Assembly: GCA_041482195.1 (NCBI GenBank)
Contig: JBGPDH010000001.1
Span: 1-61,321 of the forward strand
Direction: 5' to 3'
DNA from: Verrucomicrobiia bacterium
GTDB taxonomy: Bacteria > Verrucomicrobiota > Verrucomicrobiia > Limisphaerales > UBA11358
Length of the DNA stretch: 61,321 nucleotides
In this document: positions 10,276 through 19,014 of the stretch, piece by piece
Position numbering within the stretch: the first letter of the stretch is position 1
Layout: each line of letters begins with the position of its first letter
Notes under the pieces: model-generated
Told to the model about the DNA's origin: nothing
The model's database searches: none
What the model saw: only the letters and a program-made list of their open reading frames with translations
Position numbers and translations under genes: made by a program

Positions 10276-10950
10276 TCACACCAATTGGGGACACAACTTT
10301 TTAATTTCGCAATGCGCACAATCGGGTTTGCGCGCGAAACAACGTCGGCGGCCATGCCAGATGAGCCAATGACTGAACAAGGTCCATTGCTTCTGCGGCA
10401 CCAGCGTCATCAATTCCTGCTCAATCTTTTCCGGCGTGTTTTGTTTCGTTAACCCGAGCCGATTAGACAACCGCGCGACATGGGTGTCTACGACAACACC
10501 GATGTTGATGTTAAACGCGTTGCCTAAAACGACGTTGGCTGTTTTTCGTCCGACGCCACCGAGCTGAATCAGTTCTTCCATCGTTTGCGGCACCTTCCCG
10601 CCGTGTTTTTCAACGATAGCCTGGCAGGCTGCCTTGATGTTGCGCGCCTTGTTGCGAAAGAAACCAGTGGTCTTGATCGCCTGTTCCAAATCGGCCAGCG
10701 GCGCATTCGCATAATCTGCTGCGGAGCGGTAGTGTTTGAACAAATCCTGCGTAACGATATTGACGCGCTTGTCGGTACATTGCGCCGAGAGAATTGTAGC
10801 GATGAGCAATTCCAGAGGATTGCGGTGATCCAGTTCACAATGCGCCTCGGGATAAGTACGGTCGAGCGCGGCGATGATTTTCTCCAGTCGCGTGATCCTG
10901 GCCTTGAGTGTTTCGCGATACACAACTTCCTTACAAATCCCGGTAAACAT
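10276..10950 (-). CDS. nth: Endonuclease III (DNA glycosylase/AP lyase)
   Basis: HhH-GPD signature LIQLGGVGRKTANVVL, catalytic D in VVDTHV, and the 4Fe-4S cluster loop CFARKPDCAHCEIKKLC. Confidence 0.93.
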   Translation of the reverse strand: MFTGICKEVVYRETLKARITRLEKIIAALDRTYPEAHCELDHRNPLELLIATILSAQCTDKRVNIVTQDLFKHYRSAADYANAPLADLEQAIKTTGFFRNKARNIKAACQAIVEKHGGKVPQTMEELIQLGGVGRKTANVVLGNAFNINIGVVVDTHVARLSNRLGLTKQNTPEKIEQELMTLVPQKQWTLFSHWLIWHGRRRCFARKPDCAHCEIKKLCPQLV

Positions 10951-11197
10951 CGCGCCGATGTCGGATTATCGCGATGTCGGCCGTTCGGGAAAAATCATTT
11001 ATCGAATAGACCACGCGATAGTCTCCGACGCGAAGTCGCCAGAGATTCTTACTTCCTTGAAGTCTAACCACGCCGGGCAATCGAGGATTTTCAGCCAATG
11101 CTTCGATTTTGCGCAAGATCCGGTTGGCGACAGTAGCAGGCAGATTTTCCAACTCCTTGCGCGCTGAACGCGCAAATGTGATGGCGTAATCAGCCAT
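10931..11197 (-). CDS. RelE/ParE-family type II toxin
   Basis: 88 aa: ITFARSARKELENLP ... LQGSKNLWRLRVGDYRVVYSI ... IIRHRRDVY. The start overlaps the upstream antitoxin by 8 nt (ATGGCTGA). Confidence 0.85.
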   Translation of the reverse strand: MADYAITFARSARKELENLPATVANRILRKIEALAENPRLPGVVRLQGSKNLWRLRVGDYRVVYSINDFSRTADIAIIRHRRDVYRDL

Positions 11198-11381
11198 TGC
11201 CCTTGCGTTTCAGTTTCAAACGACGTTTCACGGATTCGAGGCTCGCGCGCGGCTCACGCGCGCGTGATACAGCCACCAAGGTGTCGTAAAAATCCTCCCA
11301 CATGCGACCATGCCGTTGCAGGTCGATGACGGCAGCGGTTTTCCGTCCACGCTCATCCACCACGAAAGCAATTCCGCTCAT
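11190..11381 (-). CDS. Putative antitoxin of the RelE/ParE pair
   Basis: A 63-aa ORF immediately upstream of, and overlapping, the toxin gene, with a basic C-terminal tail. The assignment rests on position and size only. Confidence 0.6.
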   Translation of the reverse strand: MSGIAFVVDERGRKTAAVIDLQRHGRMWEDFYDTLVAVSRAREPRASLESVKRRLKLKRKGNG

Positions 11382-11475
11382 AGATACAATCTGACAGAAA
11401 AATGCCGGAAGTAAATTCCGAAGTCATTTCCTTTCGTTGCCCTTTATTGCGTGAAATCCAATTTCGCGTGGAGGC

Positions 11476-12318
11476 TTATACCCGCAGATAGACGTAAATG
11501 GCAAAAACGACGGCGGCGAGGCCGGCGGCGGCGGCCAACGTCCAGAGCAGATTTCGTTGCCGCGCGGCCATGGCGAAGGTGGAGACGATGATGCCGGCCT
11601 GCGCGGCGAGCATGCCAAAGAAAAATTTCTGGCTGCGACGGTGGTGTCGCTCCGCCGAGAGGTTCGCCTTGCGGACTTGTAGTTCCAGCAGATAGCCGAT
11701 GTTCTGGTTCAAGCCGGCTTCAGCATCGTAGCGCAGGCCGGAGAAGCGCATTTTAGCGGCGGCCAAATTCCGGGCGGCGGACTTATCACCGGCGGGCAGC
11801 GACTTTTCAAGCTGCGCAATGGCTTGATTGGCCGGGGCGAGCGCGGCATCAAAATCCCGCGTCTGATCGCGGGCGGCTTGCAGTGCCGCAGCGAGAGTTT
11901 GGTCATCCACCAGTTTCAAGTCCCCGGCGATTTCGGTTTCGGGCTTCTCTGTCTCAACCGCTGCGAGCGCGGTCTGCAGATTTGGGTCCAGCGTGAGCGG
12001 GGCAAGGGAAGGAATTTCTTCCAGCGCCGGATTTTCGATCGGGTGGACGTCCGTGGTGGCCTGGAGGAGTTCCAGCGAGTTGCGCTGCATGGCGCCGCGC
12101 AGTTTCTTGGCCTGGAAATAACCCCACTGGTCACCGGCCTTGGATTGAAGTTGCGCGCCAAAAGCGCGGTCGTATTGGGCGCGGGTCATCTCGCTGGAGG
12201 CGAGTCCGGCCAGCAACGTGGCGATGACTGTCATCACGATGGGCGTGGCCGAGAGAATTTTGCCCCACTTGGTTTGGGGGATATCCTTCTTCAATTCTTC
12301 AGGGATCGTGACTTTCAT
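11476..12318 (-). CDS. Membrane protein, DUF4337-like
   Basis: N-terminal TM segment, then KAGDQWGYFQAKKLRG, a long helical insert, and C-terminal HHRRSQKFFFGMLAAQAGIIVSTFAMAA plus a final TM. This is my recollection of the DUF4337 layout. Confidence 0.5.
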   Translation of the reverse strand: MKVTIPEELKKDIPQTKWGKILSATPIVMTVIATLLAGLASSEMTRAQYDRAFGAQLQSKAGDQWGYFQAKKLRGAMQRNSLELLQATTDVHPIENPALEEIPSLAPLTLDPNLQTALAAVETEKPETEIAGDLKLVDDQTLAAALQAARDQTRDFDAALAPANQAIAQLEKSLPAGDKSAARNLAAAKMRFSGLRYDAEAGLNQNIGYLLELQVRKANLSAERHHRRSQKFFFGMLAAQAGIIVSTFAMAARQRNLLWTLAAAAGLAAVVFAIYVYLRV

Positions 12319-12328
12319 GGGGCGATAA

Positions 12329-14650
12329 TTATTTTGCCGGGACAGCGTTGGACGCCGTGGAATCCGCGGGCGGTGCCGTAACGGCGGTGGTGGATGTGGT
12401 CACTGACACTGGACCGGGATTGGCCGGCTTGTCGGTTTTGCTCTGCGCCTTTTGGAGATCGAGCAGCTTTTGGACTTCCACCGACGGCTTGCCGCATTTG
12501 CCGTCCGTCCAACGGTAGAGCCGGCCCTGGCTGTCATTGAGAAAGGCCCAAATAAACCAGACGACAAACGCGACGAACAACAGTTTGGGCCAGACGGAGG
12601 GTTTCTCAGCATATTTGTCCGCCGCGCTAAAGGTGGATCCCGGCGGCAAAGCCGCCACACCCGTCAACGCACCACCGAACGGCACATTCATTTTCGCCTT
12701 GGCATTCACGGCCCAGCCGTTGGCATCGAGAATCGGGCCGAGATTGCGTTTGCGCAATTTCAACCAGGCGATGGCCATGGACGGAGCGGAAATAACCAGC
12801 AAGATACCGGTGATGACCAGCGGGATCTGCCACGGTTCAAATCCTTTAAGGAAACCCAGCAGGCCGGCAAACGCCGCCGCCAAAGTGCCCAAGGCCAGAC
12901 TGAGCAGGGCGATGACGCTTGGATCAAATGCCGGTTTTGCCGGTGCTGCCGGTGCCGCTGGTGCCGCCGGGTTGGCCGGGACGAGGGGTGCATTGGCAAC
13001 GGTTGTCAATTGCGCGTTGGCGCTGGCATCCGCGGCAGCCGCCTGCTTGGCGGCGCGCTCCTCAATCATGCGGACCAGCTTTTTATAGGGCGACCAGAAT
13101 GCCTGCCGGATGCTGATCGGGTTATCCACAATCCTGGTAATGGTGGCGTCCCAGTCGCGGCCTTTGCGATCATAGAAAATGCCGTTGCGACCCACGATGA
13201 GATTGTCCGAATCCCCGCCGGTGAACGCGGCGACAATGGACAATTTCTCGCCGCTGCCTTTGCGTGCGCAATCACAATACGCGAGGTAGGTGCCGGCCAT
13301 GCCTGCCATGGCAGCGTGCTTGCCGGCGTCATTCACAATGAGGCACAAGTCACAACTGCGCTGGTCGAGATAAAGCGTGCCCGCCTGGAAAATGGCCTTG
13401 TCTTTCCGGCCATAAAAATCGGCGAAGTTGACAAAGTTGCGGCAGAGCTTTGCGAGGTCGCGATGATAATGAATCAGCCGGTGCAGGCCGATGACCGCGA
13501 CGGAATTACCTTCCTCGTTCTTGTCCCTGGTGATGAGCGCGGTCAAAGTTTCCTTCGCCTTGCTGGCAAGAATTTCGCGGGCGCGCTTCAGCCCGATTTT
13601 TTCGACGGAACCGCCGGTCTTGCCTGCGTTCCAGGCATCGAAAGCAGCGAGTTTACCGACCAGCGCATTCCAATCCGCCTCGGTCAGCACCGACCTGGCG
13701 CCGAGCAGTGGCACGATGGCATTGGTTTGCAGCGCGGCAATGGCATTGGCCCACGCTGGATTGAGGCCTTGAGTCAACGGCAACGGCGTAGTGGCTCCGA
13801 CTTGCGCCAGCGGCAAGCTGGCAATGTCGGCGTGCGTGTTGCTCAGATCTTTGGCACTCAACGCGGCATAGTCCTTCTCGTCGCGGTTCAGCGCGTTGAT
13901 TGAGCGCGGATCGAAAGCAGCCAGCCGTCCGCGCGTAAAATAGTCGTCCACCTTCGCCTTGACGGCCCGGACGGCACCAGAAGCGGCTTCGGTGTTCACG
14001 CCCAACGGCAGCACAGCGGCGTCGCCTTCGGCCTTTTTCCACCAATCAGAATAAGCCGCGGCGTCAGAGAAAAACCGATCCACTTTGGCCTGGCTGACGC
14101 CGGGCTTGCCACTCACGTCGGCGTCCGCGTCGAGGCAGTTGATGATGTCGGCGATGACGGCTTTGGTCGCTTCATCGCTGGCGGAATCCGCCGGTATGAT
14201 GCCATCGCCATTGAATGGTTTGGCGGCGAAGGTCTGCGCGGCGGCGGCGGCTTCGTCAAAGGTGACCTCCCCTGTATCTGACTTGCCCAGAACCTGCCGG
14301 GCGAAATTGGCGATCAATTTGCCTTCCGGGGTGGCGTCATTGATGGCGGATGGCCGCAGGGTAGGGCTGCCGCTGAGCAGATCATCCGGGTTTTTCATCA
14401 GGCCGGCGGCCCACTTGGCAGCGGCAATGAGTTCCGGCACGCGGACGCGCCCGTCTTTGTCGGTGTCAATCAACGCGAGCGTGGTGTTGTCGAATTCGAC
14501 GCCCGTGGTGGGACACGCCAGCGCTACCCAAAGCTTCTGGTCGAGCTGGTCCAGGTTCAGGAGGTCGGCGCCGGAACCGATGATGACCTGATTAAAGCCG
14601 CCGGCGCGGAAAAACCGCCAGCGATGAGGGGTTGTCGTGGCATTTGGCAT
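12329..14650 (-). CDS. Large membrane-anchored protein with an N-terminal canonical EF-hand, function unknown
   Basis: EF-hand loop DTDKDGRVRVPE (nt 14432-14467), a soluble region of about 560 aa, a Pro/Ala linker, and three predicted TM segments near the C-terminus (VIALLSLALGTLAAAFAGLLGFL, IPLVITGILLVISAPSMAIAWL, LLFVAFVVWFIWAFL). Confidence 0.7.
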   Translation of the reverse strand: MPNATTTPHRWRFFRAGGFNQVIIGSGADLLNLDQLDQKLWVALACPTTGVEFDNTTLALIDTDKDGRVRVPELIAAAKWAAGLMKNPDDLLSGSPTLRPSAINDATPEGKLIANFARQVLGKSDTGEVTFDEAAAAAQTFAAKPFNGDGIIPADSASDEATKAVIADIINCLDADADVSGKPGVSQAKVDRFFSDAAAYSDWWKKAEGDAAVLPLGVNTEAASGAVRAVKAKVDDYFTRGRLAAFDPRSINALNRDEKDYAALSAKDLSNTHADIASLPLAQVGATTPLPLTQGLNPAWANAIAALQTNAIVPLLGARSVLTEADWNALVGKLAAFDAWNAGKTGGSVEKIGLKRAREILASKAKETLTALITRDKNEEGNSVAVIGLHRLIHYHRDLAKLCRNFVNFADFYGRKDKAIFQAGTLYLDQRSCDLCLIVNDAGKHAAMAGMAGTYLAYCDCARKGSGEKLSIVAAFTGGDSDNLIVGRNGIFYDRKGRDWDATITRIVDNPISIRQAFWSPYKKLVRMIEERAAKQAAAADASANAQLTTVANAPLVPANPAAPAAPAAPAKPAFDPSVIALLSLALGTLAAAFAGLLGFLKGFEPWQIPLVITGILLVISAPSMAIAWLKLRKRNLGPILDANGWAVNAKAKMNVPFGGALTGVAALPPGSTFSAADKYAEKPSVWPKLLFVAFVVWFIWAFLNDSQGRLYRWTDGKCGKPSVEVQKLLDLQKAQSKTDKPANPGPVSVTTSTTAVTAPPADSTASNAVPAK

Positions 14651-14781
14651 AGGAATCCTTTTTTGATGTTATTGGTTTAAGGCACAACCGGCATAAGTTC
14701 AAGGAGCAATAAAATTGAGCAGCTCAACCACGACCGGAACCAGCATGCCAGTCCGTCAGCCCACCTGCCGGGCCATCCCGG

Positions 14782-15552
14782 TTAGAACTTGTAACCGATA
14801 GCCACCACCAGTTTGAGGTCGTTGCATTTGAAGCCGGGCGCGGGAACGTTGTTATAGTTGTCATAGAAGAAAACACCCAGGGTTGCTTTCTTATCCGCGG
14901 TGATATCCGTGTCGACGCCGGCCAGGAAGTTGACGATGTAATTTTTGAGATAAGTCGCCTGGGGCAGCCATTCGGCCGTCTGGGTAAACCGGGCGCGGTC
15001 GGTCAACTTGTAGTGAAACTTTTCACCTACCCGCACCGCGGCGTAGTTGTCGATATTGCCACCCACGTTTTCCCAAATATAGGCGGGGCCGACTTCAAGA
15101 CTGAGATCCGTGTTCGTGTTGTTGACGAAGTAATAGCCAACACCAGGGCTCACGGTTGCGCGGTAATAAATGTCTGCGACGTCGTCAAACATTCCATCCA
15201 CTCGACCGTATCCATAAAAGCGCTCGGTGAACAGGCGATTGTATTGGGCGAATCCATGGGCCGAATTGGCGTTGACCGTATTCTGTCCATTCACGGTGGA
15301 TTCGCCGTAAGTGGCATCGGCACCAAAACTCAACTCATTTTCGGTCCACTTCTTGCGCGTGCCGGCGGTGAGCGTGGCCAGGAGGGTTTCACTATTGCCG
15401 CGGGTCAGCGTAAATCCCAACGCCGCGATGCTTTCCCACTGCGGTTTCTTCTCTACTGCGGGCGGGACATTGGTTTGAGTTTGGGCTTGAACCGAAAGCA
15501 CGCTGGTCACTGACAGTGCAACCAGCGTCCACAATCGGATGATTCTTTTCAT
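14782..15552 (-). CDS. Outer-membrane beta-barrel protein, DUF481-like
   Basis: Signal peptide ending SVQAQ, an alternating beta-strand pattern, GFTLTRGNSETL motif, and a terminal aromatic residue (GYKF). Confidence 0.6.
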   Translation of the reverse strand: MKRIIRLWTLVALSVTSVLSVQAQTQTNVPPAVEKKPQWESIAALGFTLTRGNSETLLATLTAGTRKKWTENELSFGADATYGESTVNGQNTVNANSAHGFAQYNRLFTERFYGYGRVDGMFDDVADIYYRATVSPGVGYYFVNNTNTDLSLEVGPAYIWENVGGNIDNYAAVRVGEKFHYKLTDRARFTQTAEWLPQATYLKNYIVNFLAGVDTDITADKKATLGVFFYDNYNNVPAPGFKCNDLKLVVAIGYKF

Positions 15553-15613
15553 AAGTTTCCCGATTGGCTGCCAGCCTGAACCATCTCAAGCGTTGGAATG
15601 GCCGGTTGGACGT

Positions 15614-16111
15614 TTACTTGCCCAACAGATTGCCAACACTGTTGACCGCGTTGGACACCGTCTGATTCGACATAAGGTTTTGGATTTGCGTCTTGAGATC
15701 GTCCACTGTTTTCTGTTGTTCTGGTGTCAGCTGGAAATTGCTCAATTGCTTCAAGGTGTCCAGCGCGTCCTGGTATTTCTTTTCCCCAACCAGATTCTTT
15801 GCCTGATCAATCAGATTTTGAACCTCGGTCGCAGCGGCTTCCGTCTGGGTTGAAGCCGTCGTAACTGCCTGCGTTACCGCTTGAGTCACTGGCGCAACCG
15901 CCTGCGATACCGCCTGGGTGGTTGCTGTGGCCGCAGTTTGTTCAGCCGTCGTCACTACGGGGGCGGCTTCCGAGGTATTGGTCACCGCACTTTCAACAGC
16001 TTTCGGCACTTCCGTCGTTGAAGGAGTCGAGGCTTCTTTATTTCCACAACCGCCGAGCAAGGCGGCAATCAGACACGAGACAAAACCAGCACCAATCATT
16101 TTAATTTTCAT
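15614..16111 (-). CDS. Lipoprotein, low-complexity Thr/Ala/Gln/Val-rich
   Basis: Lipobox LLGGC, a QAV(T/S) repeat region, and a helical C-terminal half. Confidence 0.7.
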
Positions 16112-16313
16112 ATGCAGTCCTCTCTATTTTTTACGCCACCGGATCCATCAACGACCACCGGCACATTTTATCATTTGAAACGTTGAAAATCGCTCTTAAA
16201 ATACTAAAGCGTCCTAATTATAAGAAGATACAAACTAAAGTAAACACAAATAAAGAAAAGGAATGCCTCTTCGGTGCTTACCGCTTCCCGGGGAAGCGAA
16301 GATGGCCTCGAGA

Positions 16314-17634: not shown

Positions 17635-19014
17635 TTACGGTCGCCAGTTGTCCGGCTTGATCGACGATTCGACGGCGCGTCTCTGTGCATCCAGTTCGTC
17701 CAGTTTTGCCAAGGTCTCGCGGACATTGGCCTTGGACGGCCCGGAAGACGCATGTTTGCTGAAAGGCGTTACCGGCGCAGTCCGGCGGCTTTGGCCGAGA
17801 TAGTCGGCCAGTGCGGCGCGATAACCGGCGGCCAAAGGAGCCAGAGGCCGGGCCATGCGGAGTTCCGCCAGCTCAAGGTCGCGCAATTTGGTCTGTAGAA
17901 TGGTGGCCTGCCGGGCAGAATCAAAATTGCGGATCACGGCTTGCCAGGAAACTTCCGCATGGACCGGCAGGGCATTGGAGGCCGCGCGAAAGCCCACCGC
18001 CACACTTAGAATCTCATCCAGCTTTTCCCGGCTGGCCGCCGGTGTCCAAATCGGGCCGGGATCGTGGGCCACAAAACTGATGACCTGTAATGCCCACCAT
18101 TTTTCCACGTCCAACGGTTGCGCAAAGTCGGCATGAAAAGCGTTTTGAAAGGCGGTTTGCCAATTAAAGTAATTGGGCGATGTCTGCAACATGGCGCGCA
18201 CATTTTTCCGGCCATCTTTCAATTTCAACAAATCATTTACGAACAATTGTGCACTAACTCGGTAAACACCGCCATCGGAGCCGCTCACCTGGTCCTCGGT
18301 CGGCCAGCTTAACTGATCAAAGGTGAGTACCGGATGGTCGCGCAATATGTTCCGTGCATCGGCGAGCGGATCGATCCCGCGTCCGGTCGCGACCATCCGG
18401 CTTTCCGCCAGGCCGTTCACCGTCCGATTGGGAGAGGAGAGAACAATGTCGACCGTGCCTGTCGCCAGCAGTTGTTGCGACAATCCGTCGGTAAGCCAGG
18501 CCGGGATCTCCGCCGGCCGCACACCGCCGCCGCGATCGGCGAACTCCAGCAGCACCACACCGGTCATGGCACGCAGGAAACGGGTGCGGGGCAGAGCGTC
18601 CGGCAGGTCAACCCGATAATTCCAGCCGTCGGCAAAATGCCGGGAAAGGACAGTAACATTGTCATCCAGGGACCGGGCCGGGCGCAGGGTGAGATAAATT
18701 CTTCCCTGCCAGGGTGTCGTCAAAGTGATACCGAGCTCGCGCCAGAGTTGATGTTTGATTCGCTCAGCGGACACTGCCAGCAAGGCCGGTTCAAGCCGGA
18801 CGACATCCGCGTTCGTAGCCACTGCGGGTGTCGCAGCCAAAGACCAATCGGCAGGACTGGATTGGTCACCCGTAACAATGAACTGGCCGGAGACACTGCG
18901 CGCTAAATTTGCGCCTGGTAATGAAGGCTGGGCGGACGTGTGCGCGCAGAAAACGCAGACCATGGCAACGGCGCAACCAAAGTCAGACAGGTGGCGCTCA
19001 GGGAACATGATCAC
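17635..19014 (-). CDS. Secreted hypothetical protein
   Basis: N-terminal hydrophobic signal ending AHTSAQ; no recognisable motif. The GTG start overlaps the upstream stop codon by 4 nt; an ATG lies two codons downstream of the GTG, at 19008. Confidence 0.6.
   Translation of the reverse strand: MIMFPERHLSDFGCAVAMVCVFCAHTSAQPSLPGANLARSVSGQFIVTGDQSSPADWSLAATPAVATNADVVRLEPALLAVSAERIKHQLWRELGITLTTPWQGRIYLTLRPARSLDDNVTVLSRHFADGWNYRVDLPDALPRTRFLRAMTGVVLLEFADRGGGVRPAEIPAWLTDGLSQQLLATGTVDIVLSSPNRTVNGLAESRMVATGRGIDPLADARNILRDHPVLTFDQLSWPTEDQVSGSDGGVYRVSAQLFVNDLLKLKDGRKNVRAMLQTSPNYFNWQTAFQNAFHADFAQPLDVEKWWALQVISFVAHDPGPIWTPAASREKLDEILSVAVGFRAASNALPVHAEVSWQAVIRNFDSARQATILQTKLRDLELAELRMARPLAPLAAGYRAALADYLGQSRRTAPVTPFSKHASSGPSKANVRETLAKLDELDAQRRAVESSIKPDNWRP

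What the first reader, a model, noticed from the sequence alone, without database searches (positions are those of the whole stretch)
11476..16111. Same-strand envelope block: lipoprotein, DUF481-like barrel, EF-hand membrane protein, DUF4337-like protein
Seen: four consecutive minus-strand genes have gaps of 61, 131 and 10 nt. They encode a lipobox protein, a ~250-aa beta-barrel ending in Phe, and a 773-aa protein with a textbook EF-hand loop (DTDKDGRVRVPE: D1, D3, D5, G6, V8, E12), a large soluble region and three C-terminal TM helices. The fourth is a 280-aa two-TM protein with a QWGYFQAK motif. None has an assigned function. Inference: the last two genes, 10 nt apart, look like a functional pair. 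Together with an OM barrel and a lipoprotein they could form a calcium-responsive trans-envelope module.
Basis: partly seen in the sequence, partly recalled or inferred. Interest (0 to 1): 0.6.

Follow-up and report, generated by a model that had tools for sequence, protein, structure and literature searches.

The report
Membrane EF-hand protein with optional envelope neighbours
The four genes are real, but they are not a fixed machine: the core is one widespread, unnamed inner-membrane protein with a strictly conserved calcium-binding loop facing the cytoplasm, and its three envelope-gene neighbours come and go between close relatives.

Summary
All four minus-strand genes exist as described, with gaps of 61, 131 and 10 nt. 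They encode a lipoprotein, a DUF481 outer-membrane barrel, a 773-aa protein with an EF-hand loop, and a DUF4337-like protein.

The 773-aa protein ("BIG") is the real finding.
- It founds a large multi-phylum family: 2,751 clusters at 50% identity, with no Pfam or NCBIfam model and no Foldseek match in PDB or BFVD.
- Over 256 homologs the loop DxDxDGRIRxxE is 87-96% conserved at every liganding position, and a second NGDG loop is 96% conserved.
- It has no signal peptide, and charge distribution across the family follows the positive-inside rule. The 578-aa EF-hand domain is therefore cytoplasmic.

The "functional pair" with DUF4337 fails as a general rule.
- In 12 of 12 other genomes that hold both genes, they lie apart.
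- They are adjacent only in the window's own sub-lineage and in one rearranged case.

Close relatives show many presence/absence combinations of the lipoprotein, DUF481 and DUF4337 genes around a fixed kamA-BIG-nth backbone.

DUF481 is a recurrent but optional neighbour. It sits next to BIG in about 12% of loci, through at least five independent adjacency events, yet the two families do not co-occur at genome level.

A calcium-sensing trans-envelope complex is unlikely. A cytoplasmic calcium sensor anchored in the membrane is the best reading.

The parts
15614..16111 (-). 165-aa lipoprotein. It has a signal peptide with lipobox LLGG|C (Cys22), a Thr/Ala/Gln-rich linker and a helical C-terminal region of about 60 aa.
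   Evidence: ORF; the lipobox is read from the sequence. Pfam and NCBIfam give only weak low-complexity or helical matches. It lies upstream of the 773-aa gene in some relatives only: L031-35 at 49-65% identity, L039 and L059 at 36-37%.
14782..15552 (-). 256-aa DUF481 (YdiY-type, TCDB 1.B.75) outer-membrane beta-barrel. It has a signal peptide (...SVQA|QT) and a C-terminal Phe.
   Evidence: PF04338 at E 2.6e-36. The same position is occupied in L040 (87% identity), L059 and L061, but is empty in L031-L039. The family is a putative 12-stranded outer-membrane pore protein (PMC4827864).
12329..14650 (-). 773-aa inner-membrane protein ('BIG'). It belongs to a large unnamed family. The N-terminal 578 aa are cytoplasmic and three TM helices sit at the C-terminus.
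   Evidence: No Pfam or NCBIfam family above cut-off. Family size: 2,751 50%-identity clusters at E<=1e-3. AF2 model has pLDDT 81.9. No Foldseek hit below E 0.25 in PDB or BFVD.
14432..14467 (-). EF-hand loop 1, DTDKDGRVRVPE (residues 62-73), flanked by helices 55-61 and 71-84.
   Evidence: Translation. Helix-loop-helix with a beta bridge at loop positions 7-9 in the AF2 model. Conservation 87-96% over 256 homologs. Pfam EF-hand_7 scores below threshold: 21.9 bits against a cut-off of 30.
14183..14218 (-). Second, degenerate EF-hand-like loop PFNGDGIIPADS (residues 145-156). It lacks Asp at position 1. N-G-D-G is 96% conserved.
   Evidence: Helices 131-143 and 160-173 flank it, with a beta bridge at 152-153. 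Weak profile matches to two-EF-hand polcalcins cover both loops (E 0.09-0.2).
13268..13354 (-). CxxC...CxC cysteine quartet (C433, C436, C459, C461) in the beta domain (residues 424-508). It is a candidate metal site.
   Evidence: Translation. At least 90% conserved in the main subfamily. 71-83% conserved over all 256 homologs, replaced by hydrophobic residues in the distant subfamily. Metal binding is inferred, not shown.
12539..12916 (-). Membrane module: Gly/Ala-rich TM1 (579-597), TM2 (609-627), the invariant interfacial loop KLRKRNLGPILDANGWAVN..., and TM3 (686-704).
   Evidence: Invariant residues S621, P623, R635, P639, L641, A643, G645, W646, A647, N649, G659, L662 and P669. K+R counts across the family fit an N-in topology.
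11476..12318 (-). 280-aa DUF4337-like membrane protein. TM1 runs into a long helix, followed by a small helical cap, a second long helix and a C-terminal TM hairpin.
   Evidence: PF14235 at E 1.4e-10. AF2 pLDDT 83.1. Foldseek gives only generic helical-bundle hits, best E 0.04. 89% identical in L034/L035; absent from L031-33 and L036-L045.
11405..11421 (-). Terminator-like hairpin followed by a T-run, 55 nt after the DUF4337-like stop codon. It is the probable end of the transcription unit.
   Evidence: The scan found no more sites than shuffled sequence gives, so this is suggestive only.
16217..16244 (-). Promoter-like site (TTTACT-16-TATAAT, 10 of 12 matches) upstream of the lipoprotein gene.
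   Evidence: This is a consensus match only and is not enriched over shuffles.

Best explanation
The block is a mosaic, not a module.

Shown: locus structure.
- The core is one gene, the 773-aa protein (BIG). In this verrucomicrobial lineage it sits in a stable housekeeping backbone: unknown 459-aa gene, kamA-like radical-SAM gene, BIG, nth, lplA-like gene.
- Small envelope genes are inserted or lost on either side of BIG: the lipoprotein and DUF481 upstream, DUF4337-like or DUF481 downstream.

Shown or strongly indicated: BIG itself.
- It is an inner-membrane protein whose first 578 residues are cytoplasmic.
- It carries one canonical and one degenerate EF-hand loop, a helical domain, a beta domain with a Cys quartet, and a long helix.
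- A Gly/Ala-rich TM hairpin follows, then an almost invariant interfacial loop and a third TM.

Inferred: mechanism.
- The EF-hand pair binds cytoplasmic Ca2+, and the resulting change is passed through the long helix to the membrane module.
- That module then acts as a gated conduit, or as a membrane-state or signalling element.

Neighbours.
- In this window BIG is co-transcribed with the DUF4337-like gene. That partner is a lineage-restricted add-on.
- DUF481 barrels are a recurrent, optional neighbour. This points to a shared physiological context (envelope ion or stress handling) rather than a physical trans-envelope complex.
For: Family and conservation:
- 7,993 of the 8,000 scored candidates at E<=1e-3 in the word-indexed protein search.
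- 2,751 clusters at 50% identity.
- Members at 44-55% identity come from records labelled Verrucomicrobiota, Planctomycetota, Lentisphaerae, Gallionellaceae/Nitrosomonas/Competibacter, Myxococcota, Desulfobacterota, Gemmatimonadota and Fibrobacteria. Some of these MAG labels may be unreliable.
- Single copy in the window's own genome. Present in 151 of 301 genomes sampled from the phylum.
- EF-hand loop and NGDG conservation.

Structure:
- AF2 pLDDT 81.9, with helix-loop-helix geometry at both loops.
- No structural relative in PDB or BFVD.
- No relative in viral contigs.

Topology:
- No N-terminal hydrophobic segment and three C-terminal TMs.
- Mean K+R across the family: 0.6 in the TM1-TM2 loop, against 3.4 after TM2 and 2.8 before TM3.

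Mosaic locus:
- The gene-order table shows many presence/absence combinations among relatives of 54-87% identity.
- DUF4337 is not adjacent in 12 of 12 genomes holding both genes. It is adjacent only in L034/35 and L076.

DUF481 association:
- Adjacent in 14 of about 112 main-subfamily loci, in upstream, downstream and divergent positions, in Verrucomicrobiota and in Myxococcota-like genomes.
- The DUF481 tree needs at least 5-7 changes of the 'adjacent' label.
- Chance predicts about 0.08 adjacencies in the 87 genomes that hold both genes. P(>=4) is 2e-6.
Against: - Ca2+ binding is not shown. Pfam EF-hand models stay below their gathering scores. Loop position 9 is Arg in 92% of homologs, which is unusual for a liganding position.
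- The EF-hand could be structural rather than regulatory.
- No TM helix carries a conserved charged residue, so a selective ion path is not evident.
- DUF481 and BIG do not co-occur at genome level (odds ratio 1.16, p 0.56).
- Topology rests on sequence rules, not on experiment.
Confidence: 0.6

Rival explanations
1. All four products assemble into one calcium-responsive trans-envelope machine: outer-membrane barrel, lipoprotein, EF-hand inner-membrane protein and DUF4337 partner.
For: - All four genes are on the same strand with short gaps.
- All four products are envelope proteins.
- DUF481 adjacency is enriched.
- The trio lipoprotein-BIG-DUF4337 recurs in the window's sub-lineage.
Against: - Many presence/absence combinations of the three flanking genes occur among close relatives.
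- DUF4337 lies apart from BIG in 12 of 12 other genomes that hold both.
- There is no genome-level co-occurrence with DUF481.
- The EF-hand domain is cytoplasmic. BIG exposes only an 11-aa loop and a poorly conserved tail to the periplasm.
Confidence: 0.07
2. BIG is a Ca2+-gated inner-membrane channel, a homo-oligomer of 3-TM subunits. Cytoplasmic Ca2+ bound at the EF-hands opens or closes it. DUF481 pores, where present, provide the outer-membrane leg of the same cation pathway.
For: - TM1 is Gly/Ala-rich, with small-residue packing motifs.
- The interfacial loop after TM2 is invariant.
- A conserved cytoplasmic EF-hand pair is linked to the TMs by a long helix.
- DUF481 is a putative outer-membrane pore family with recurrent adjacency.
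Against: - No conserved polar or charged residues within the TMs.
- No fold match to any channel; a bestrophin-like hit has E 2.5.
- Oligomeric state is unknown.
- No co-occurrence with DUF481.
Confidence: 0.17
3. The juxtaposition has no functional meaning. BIG works alone. The slots on either side of it are permissive intergenic sites where small envelope genes, and a ParE toxin-antitoxin pair, land by chance.
For: - Variable content at both slots.
- A ParE-type pair sits next to the block only in this window.
- Most BIG genes in 8 phyla have no shared neighbour.
Against: - At least five independent DUF481 adjacencies, where about 0.1 is expected.
- Two independent DUF4337 adjacencies with different gene order, in the window lineage and in L076.
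- A 10-nt gap, which implies co-transcription.
Confidence: 0.13
4. BIG and the DUF4337-like protein are a two-component alpha-helical pore former or holin-like pair, of the ClyA/XaxAB/Ahl kind.
For: - The best, non-significant Foldseek hits are XaxB/PaxB for BIG (E 0.25) and the ClyA pore and AhlC for the DUF4337-like protein (E 0.04-0.14).
- One public record names a BIG homolog 'phage holin family protein'.
Against: - TM-scores are 0.07-0.34 with rmsd of 28-40 A, a generic long-helix resemblance.
- Both proteins have strongly hydrophobic constitutive TMs.
- BIG is single-copy in a housekeeping context.
- BIG is absent from viral contigs and nearly absent from plasmids.
- The Pfam holin match has E 1.8.
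- The pair is rarely adjacent.
Confidence: 0.03

Closest known systems
Bacterial EF-hand Ca2+-binding proteins (EfhP/PA4107 of Pseudomonas aeruginosa, CabD and calerythrin of actinomycetes, CasA of Rhizobium; Pfam EF-hand clan)
   Same: A 12-residue DxDxDG...E loop sits between two helices. A second loop probably pairs with it through a short beta bridge. Weak profile matches to two-EF-hand polcalcins cover both loops.
   Different: The known bacterial examples are small soluble proteins with 2-4 EF-hands, located in the periplasm, secreted or in the cytoplasm (table in PMC9132961). BIG is 773 aa and anchored by three TMs. It has one canonical and one degenerate loop about 70 residues apart. 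About 400 residues of helical and beta domains have no known relative. It scores below the Pfam EF-hand cut-offs.
DUF481 / YdiY family, TCDB 1.B.75 putative outer-membrane beta-barrel pore proteins
   Same: The 256-aa gene is a full-length member: profile positions 2-210 of 210, 126 bits. It has a signal peptide and a C-terminal Phe.
   Different: No function is known for the family. A preprint reports that DUF481 mutants of Pseudoalteromonas are impaired in growth with fusidic acid (10.1101/2024.12.11.627208). I found no report of its recurrent adjacency to the BIG family.
DUF4337 (PF14235)
   Same: The N-terminal TM and the QSKAGDQW.FQAK helix match profile positions 10-66, with a second stretch at the C-terminus. 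NCBI names close homologs 'DUF4337 family protein'.
   Different: The protein is 280 aa against a 161-position model. It has an inserted, variable helical cap (residues about 90-175) and a C-terminal TM hairpin. This long form was found in only 13 of 301 phylum genomes.
Trans-envelope systems that combine an outer-membrane barrel, a lipoprotein and an inner-membrane protein (Tol-Pal, Lpt, Mla/Pqi, TamAB; from my own knowledge)
   Same: The predicted locations of the four products span both membranes.
   Different: Those systems have a conserved periplasm-spanning domain and stable co-inheritance of their genes. Here no sizeable conserved periplasmic domain exists in BIG, and the genes are inherited independently.
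Dx[DN]xDG calcium-binding loops outside EF-hands (Rigden et al. 2011, PMC3123361)
   Same: The same linear motif.
   Different: That paper's abstract states that at least twelve families, EF-hands being one, use the motif. Here both flanking helices and the Glu at position 12 are present, so the EF-hand context is the better fit.

Membership tests
EF-hand Ca2+-binding domain | 12-residue loop with ligands at positions 1, 3, 5 and 12, Gly at 6 and a hydrophobic residue at 8 | tested here: met
   DTDKDGRVRVPE. Over 256 homologs: D1 96%, D3 91%, D5 91%, G6 93%, I/V8 96%, E/D12 97%.
EF-hand Ca2+-binding domain | Helix-loop-helix fold around the loop | tested here: met
   In the AF2 model, helices 55-61 and 71-84 flank the loop, with a beta bridge at 68-70. 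pLDDT is above 90 there. This is a prediction, not a solved structure.
EF-hand Ca2+-binding domain | Pfam EF-hand model above its gathering score | tested here: not met
   EF-hand_7 scores 17.2 bits on the whole protein and 21.9 bits on residues 1-210, against a cut-off of 30.
EF-hand Ca2+-binding domain | Paired EF-hands | tested here: inconclusive
   The second loop PFNGDGIIPADS lacks Asp at position 1. It is flanked by helices 131-143 and 160-173 and has a beta bridge at 152-153. Polcalcin hits have E 0.09-0.2.
EF-hand Ca2+-binding domain | Measured Ca2+ binding | not testable with these tools
   Needs ITC, a 45Ca overlay or Tb3+ luminescence on purified protein.
DUF481 (PF04338) | Full-length profile match above the cut-off, with outer-membrane protein hallmarks | tested here: met
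   126.1 bits against 21.1, profile positions 2-210 of 210. The signal peptide and C-terminal Phe are read from the sequence.
DUF4337 (PF14235) | Profile match above the cut-off | tested here: met
   42 bits against 27, but in two stretches covering only part of the 161-position model. The L076 homolog scores 42.9 bits.
Bacterial lipoprotein | Signal peptide ending in a lipobox with an invariant Cys | tested here: met
   [21 protein letters not shown]|C. The hydrophobic segment is residues 5-23. No dedicated predictor was available.
   DUF4337 was adjacent in 0 of 12 other genomes that hold both genes, and in 3 loci (two independent arrangements: L034/L035 and L076) of about 130 BIG loci. DUF481 was adjacent in about 12% of loci.
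   N-in topology. The periplasmic parts are an 11-aa loop and a variable tail.
ClyA/XaxAB/Ahl alpha-pore-forming toxins | Significant fold similarity | tested here: not met
   Best E values are 0.25 (BIG) and 0.04 (DUF4337-like), with TM-scores of 0.34 or less.
Phage holin (the name on one public homolog) | Holin family profile match, or a phage context | tested here: not met
   Phage_holin_3_6 has E 1.8. No relative in IMG/VR contigs. No PHROGs search was run.

The most novel reading that the evidence does not exclude
BIG founds a widespread, undescribed family of bacterial inner-membrane calcium sensors or channels. A cytoplasmic paired EF-hand controls a 3-TM, Gly/Ala-rich membrane module. 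In part of the lineages this works together with DUF481 outer-membrane pores, and sometimes with DUF4337 proteins, in cation or envelope-stress homeostasis.
Probability: 0.15. Interest if true: 0.8.

Novelty: new variant of a known kind. Interest (0 to 1): 0.5.

Why it matters
How bacteria sense and use cytoplasmic Ca2+ is still largely unknown. [quoted passage not shown]

This family is a concrete, testable candidate for three reasons:
- It is large, and its members come from records labelled as at least eight phyla.
- It is membrane-anchored, and its EF-hand loop is conserved more strictly than any other part of the protein.
- It has no family model, no name and no solved structural relative.

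The family could also give a first functional handle on two orphan families, DUF481 and DUF4337. For the four-gene block itself the result is sobering: it is a lineage-specific assortment, not a machine.

Tried and rejected
Searches that found nothing useful:
- Pfam, NCBIfam and PADLOC scans of all four proteins, and of four pieces of BIG. Nothing appeared beyond DUF481, DUF4337 and sub-threshold EF-hand matches.
- Sequence and profile searches of the PDB gave only weak EF-hand hits.
- Foldseek of both AF2 models against the PDB, and of BIG against BFVD, gave nothing with E<=0.001.
- The plasmid collection held one partial Aeromonas fragment.
- Viral contigs held no relative, so the 'holin' name was rejected.
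- Names of ten distant clusters were all 'hypothetical protein'.
- A literature search on DUF4337 found two incidental mentions.

Ideas tested and rejected:
- A Tat or Sec signal at the N-terminus. HRWRFFRAGGF has no twin Arg and no hydrophobic h-region, and AF2 folds residues 13-22 as strands of the domain.
- A universal partner of BIG. All-against-all clustering of flank ORFs in 80 loci from many phyla, and in 20 loci of the distant subfamily, found none.
- Genome-level co-occurrence of BIG with DUF481.

Inconclusive or blocked:
- A crude lipobox regex across loci was too noisy to use.
- The promoter and terminator scan found no more sites than shuffled sequence gives.

Full report
**1. Observation**

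- The first ORF (165 aa) has a signal peptide ending in the lipobox LLGG|C.
- The second (256 aa) is a full-length DUF481 barrel: PF04338, E 2.6e-36. It ends in Phe.
- The third (773 aa, called BIG here) carries DTDKDGRVRVPE at residues 62-73. It has three C-terminal hydrophobic segments at 579-597, 609-627 and 686-704.
- The fourth (280 aa) matches DUF4337: PF14235, E 1.4e-10. It contains GDQWGYFQAKK.

One correction is needed. The fourth protein has three hydrophobic segments, not two, and its AF2 model agrees.

**2. What BIG is**

BIG reaches no Pfam, NCBIfam or PADLOC family. The only match is a sub-threshold EF-hand_7 hit. The family is nevertheless very large.
- The word-indexed search found 7,993 proteins at E<=1e-3 among the 8,000 candidates it scored.
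- The exhaustive search found 2,751 clusters at 50% identity at E<=1e-3, of which 1,015 are at E<=1e-30.
- Named genome records place members at 44-55% identity to the window protein in Verrucomicrobiota, Planctomycetota, Lentisphaerae, Gallionellaceae, Nitrosomonas, Competibacter, Myxococcota/Polyangia, Desulfobacterota, Gemmatimonadota and Fibrobacteria. Some MAG labels in that list are plainly unreliable, so the phylum count is approximate.
- The window's own genome has one copy. Of 301 genomes sampled from the phylum, 151 have the gene.
- Public names are 'hypothetical protein', with one 'phage holin family protein'.
- No relative exists in IMG/VR viral contigs. The plasmid collection holds only one partial fragment.

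**3. Conservation and structure of BIG**

I aligned 256 homologs of 25-92% identity.
- EF-hand loop: D1 96%, D3 91% (plus N 5%), D5 91% (plus N 5%), G6 93%, I/V8 96%, E12 87% (plus D 10%).
- Arg is unusually fixed at loop positions 7 (80%) and 9 (92%).
- A second loop, PFNGDGIIPADS (residues 145-156), has N-G-D-G 96% conserved.

The AF2 model has mean pLDDT 81.9, and above 90 over most of residues 20-510. It shows these elements in order:
- a small beta unit (residues 13-47);
- a helix-loop-helix at each loop, each with a short beta bridge (68-70 and 152-153), which is the geometry expected of a paired EF-hand;
- a helical domain (187-416);
- a beta domain (424-508) carrying C433-x-x-C436 and C459-x-C461;
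- a long helix (514-552) and a disordered Ala/Pro linker;
- TM1 and TM2, the nearly invariant stretch KLRKRNLGPxLDAxGWAxN, TM3, and a variable tail.

A profile search of PDB sequences gave only weak matches to two-EF-hand polcalcins. They cover both loops, at E 0.09-0.2. Foldseek found nothing with E<=0.001 in the PDB (best E 0.25) or in BFVD (best E 0.34). With the libraries at hand, the fold outside the EF-hands has no known relative. No AlphaFold DB search was possible.

**4. Topology**

- There is no N-terminal hydrophobic segment, and the N-terminus folds as part of the domain. A 578-residue domain without a signal peptide cannot be exported, so it must be cytoplasmic.
- Across the family, the TM1-TM2 loop carries 0.6 Lys+Arg on average. 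The segment after TM2 carries 3.4 and the segment before TM3 carries 2.8. This fits N-in, out, in, out.
- A conserved Cys quartet is also more plausible in the reducing cytoplasm. This point is an inference.

The EF-hands therefore face the cytoplasm. Only an 11-aa loop and the poorly conserved C-terminal tail can reach the periplasm.

**5. The DUF4337 'pair'**

In the window the two genes are 10 nt apart, and a terminator-like hairpin follows the second gene. Co-transcription here is likely. The pairing does not generalise.
- The long DUF4337-like form occurs in 13 of 301 phylum genomes, and all 13 also hold BIG.
- In 12 of the 12 genomes other than the window's, the two genes lie on different contigs or at least 26 kb apart (coordinates).
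- An iterated profile search over every BIG locus fetched (about 130) found a DUF4337-like neighbour only in L034/L035 and in L076. L034/L035 have the same order and the same 10-nt gap, with the DUF4337-like gene 89% identical. In L076 the gene is upstream of BIG, in an unrelated context.
- Species-level relatives whose BIG is 80-87% identical (L031-33, L037-L040, L045) go straight from BIG to nth.
- Many metagenome contigs of the window's sub-lineage do appear to carry both genes. This is inferred from shared longest-contig lengths. The pair is therefore stable there by descent.
- Two independent adjacencies are more than chance would give, so a loose link is possible. An obligate pair is excluded.

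**6. The barrel and the lipoprotein**

The gene-order table for relatives shows a fixed backbone with optional slots: unk459, kamA, [lipoprotein], [DUF481], BIG, [DUF4337 or DUF481], nth, lplA, Ig-EEP. Six patterns of presence were observed.

| Locus | Lipoprotein | DUF481 | DUF4337 |
|---|---|---|---|
| Window | + | + | + |
| L059 | + | + | - |
| L040, L061 | - | + | - |
| L034 | + | - | + |
| L031, L039 | + | - | - |
| L037, L038, L044, L045 | - | - | - |

DUF481 is nevertheless the only neighbour that recurs across phyla.
- It lies next to BIG in 14 of about 112 main-subfamily loci.
- It is upstream on the same strand in the window, L029, L040, L059, L061, L065, L070 and L078.
- It is downstream in L002 and L047.
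- In Myxococcota-like genomes it is on the same strand in L083 and L098, and divergent in L082 and L105 (Pfam-confirmed).
- In the phylum sample, G197, G257, G251 and G155 are further adjacent cases.
- On a DUF481 tree, the 'adjacent' label needs 7 changes, and at least 5 are forced by well-supported branches. Adjacency therefore arose several times.
- With about 1.7 copies per genome and about 3,500 genes (my estimates), chance predicts about 0.08 adjacencies among the 87 genomes that hold both. P(>=4) is 2e-6.
- Presence of the two families is still uncorrelated: 87/64/81/69 genomes, odds ratio 1.16, p 0.56.

The lipoprotein is detectable upstream only in close relatives.

**7. Mechanism**

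Shown:
- the anatomy, conservation, distribution and neighbourhood pattern described above.

Indicated by prediction:
- the cytoplasmic location of the sensor domain;
- the paired EF-hand geometry.

Inferred:
- Ca2+ binds to the EF-hand pair;
- the signal passes along helix 514-552 to the Gly/Ala-rich TM hairpin and the invariant interfacial loop.

What the membrane module does is open. It could be a gated conduit, or it could report membrane state or act in signalling. I lean to a membrane-anchored cytoplasmic Ca2+ sensor. The specific Ca2+-gated channel version gets about 0.17. The recurrent DUF481 neighbourhood suggests a shared physiological context, such as envelope ions or stress. The topology argues against physical bridging of the envelope.

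The DUF4337-like protein is modelled as two long antiparallel helices rising from the membrane with a small cap (pLDDT 83.1). Its Foldseek hits are generic helical bundles (ClyA, AhlC, chemoreceptors), best E 0.04. Which side of the membrane its helical domain faces is ambiguous by the charge rule.

**8. Comparison with what is known**

- The studied bacterial EF-hand proteins are small and soluble (EfhP, CasA, CabD and others; PMC9132961). BIG shares the loop and its flanking helices, but not the size, the membrane anchor or the remaining 400 residues.
- According to the abstract of PMC3123361, the Dx[DN]xDG motif also occurs in at least eleven non-EF-hand contexts. Here both helices and Glu12 are present, so the EF-hand context fits better.
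- DUF481 is TCDB 1.B.75, a putative 12-stranded outer-membrane pore protein of unknown function.
- Resemblance to ClyA/Xax-type toxins or to holins was tested and not met.

**9. Verdict**

- The EF-hand is real and conserved.
- Co-transcription of BIG with the DUF4337-like gene in this window is likely.
- The link between the barrel family and BIG is non-random.
- There is no conserved four-gene module.
- There is no conserved BIG-DUF4337 pair.
- The sensor faces the cytoplasm.

The valuable part is the BIG family itself. It is a large, unnamed family of membrane-anchored EF-hand proteins with no structural relative in the libraries searched.

Noticed in passing
window 10931-11381 (-): A ParE-family toxin (PF05016, E 9.6e-13) and a 63-aa upstream partner lie between the DUF4337-like gene and nth. 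The pair is absent at this position in all syntenic relatives examined (L031-L047), so it is a recent insertion next to the block.
   Followed up: partly
L126, L132-L135, L137 (genomes G175, G208, G028, G097, G151, G238): In a distant BIG subfamily (26-29% identity, one verrucomicrobial family, five genera), the BIG gene starts within or a few bases after the end of a Glycos_transf_4 (MraY/WecA-type) gene on the same strand. This suggests translational coupling to an envelope-glycan initiating enzyme.
   Followed up: partly
G194:C30:13978-15909, G209:C106:13530-15575: Some genomes have BIG split into two adjacent ORFs. One matches residues about 6-239 (the EF-hand part) and the other about 277-725. 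This suggests the EF-hand module can work as a separate polypeptide, or that these genes are frameshifted.
   Followed up: no
L108 (Candidatus Ferrigenium straubiae KS chromosome), L087, L063: These BIG homologs carry one in-frame stop codon each. In L108 the stop lies only in the variable C-terminal tail.
   Followed up: no
window 12329-14650 compared with L040: L040 is the closest relative by its flanks: kamA 94%, unk459 92%, nth 91%, Ig-EEP 92% and DUF481 87% identity. Its BIG is only 80% identical, whereas BIG of L031/L039 is 87% identical with flanks of 61-86% identity. This pattern suggests recombination within the locus.
   Followed up: no
window 17635-19014 (-): A 459-aa protein with no Pfam match is conserved upstream of the kamA-like gene in most syntenic relatives, at 33-92% identity.
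   Followed up: no
G000:C105:7863-8486: The window's genome holds a second DUF481 gene on another contig. It falls outside the clade of BIG-adjacent barrels.
   Followed up: partly
NZ_CP060033.1:61373-61804 (Aeromonas salmonicida conjugative plasmid): An unannotated stretch encodes a fragment 39% identical to BIG residues 337-481. It is the only plasmid hit.
   Followed up: no
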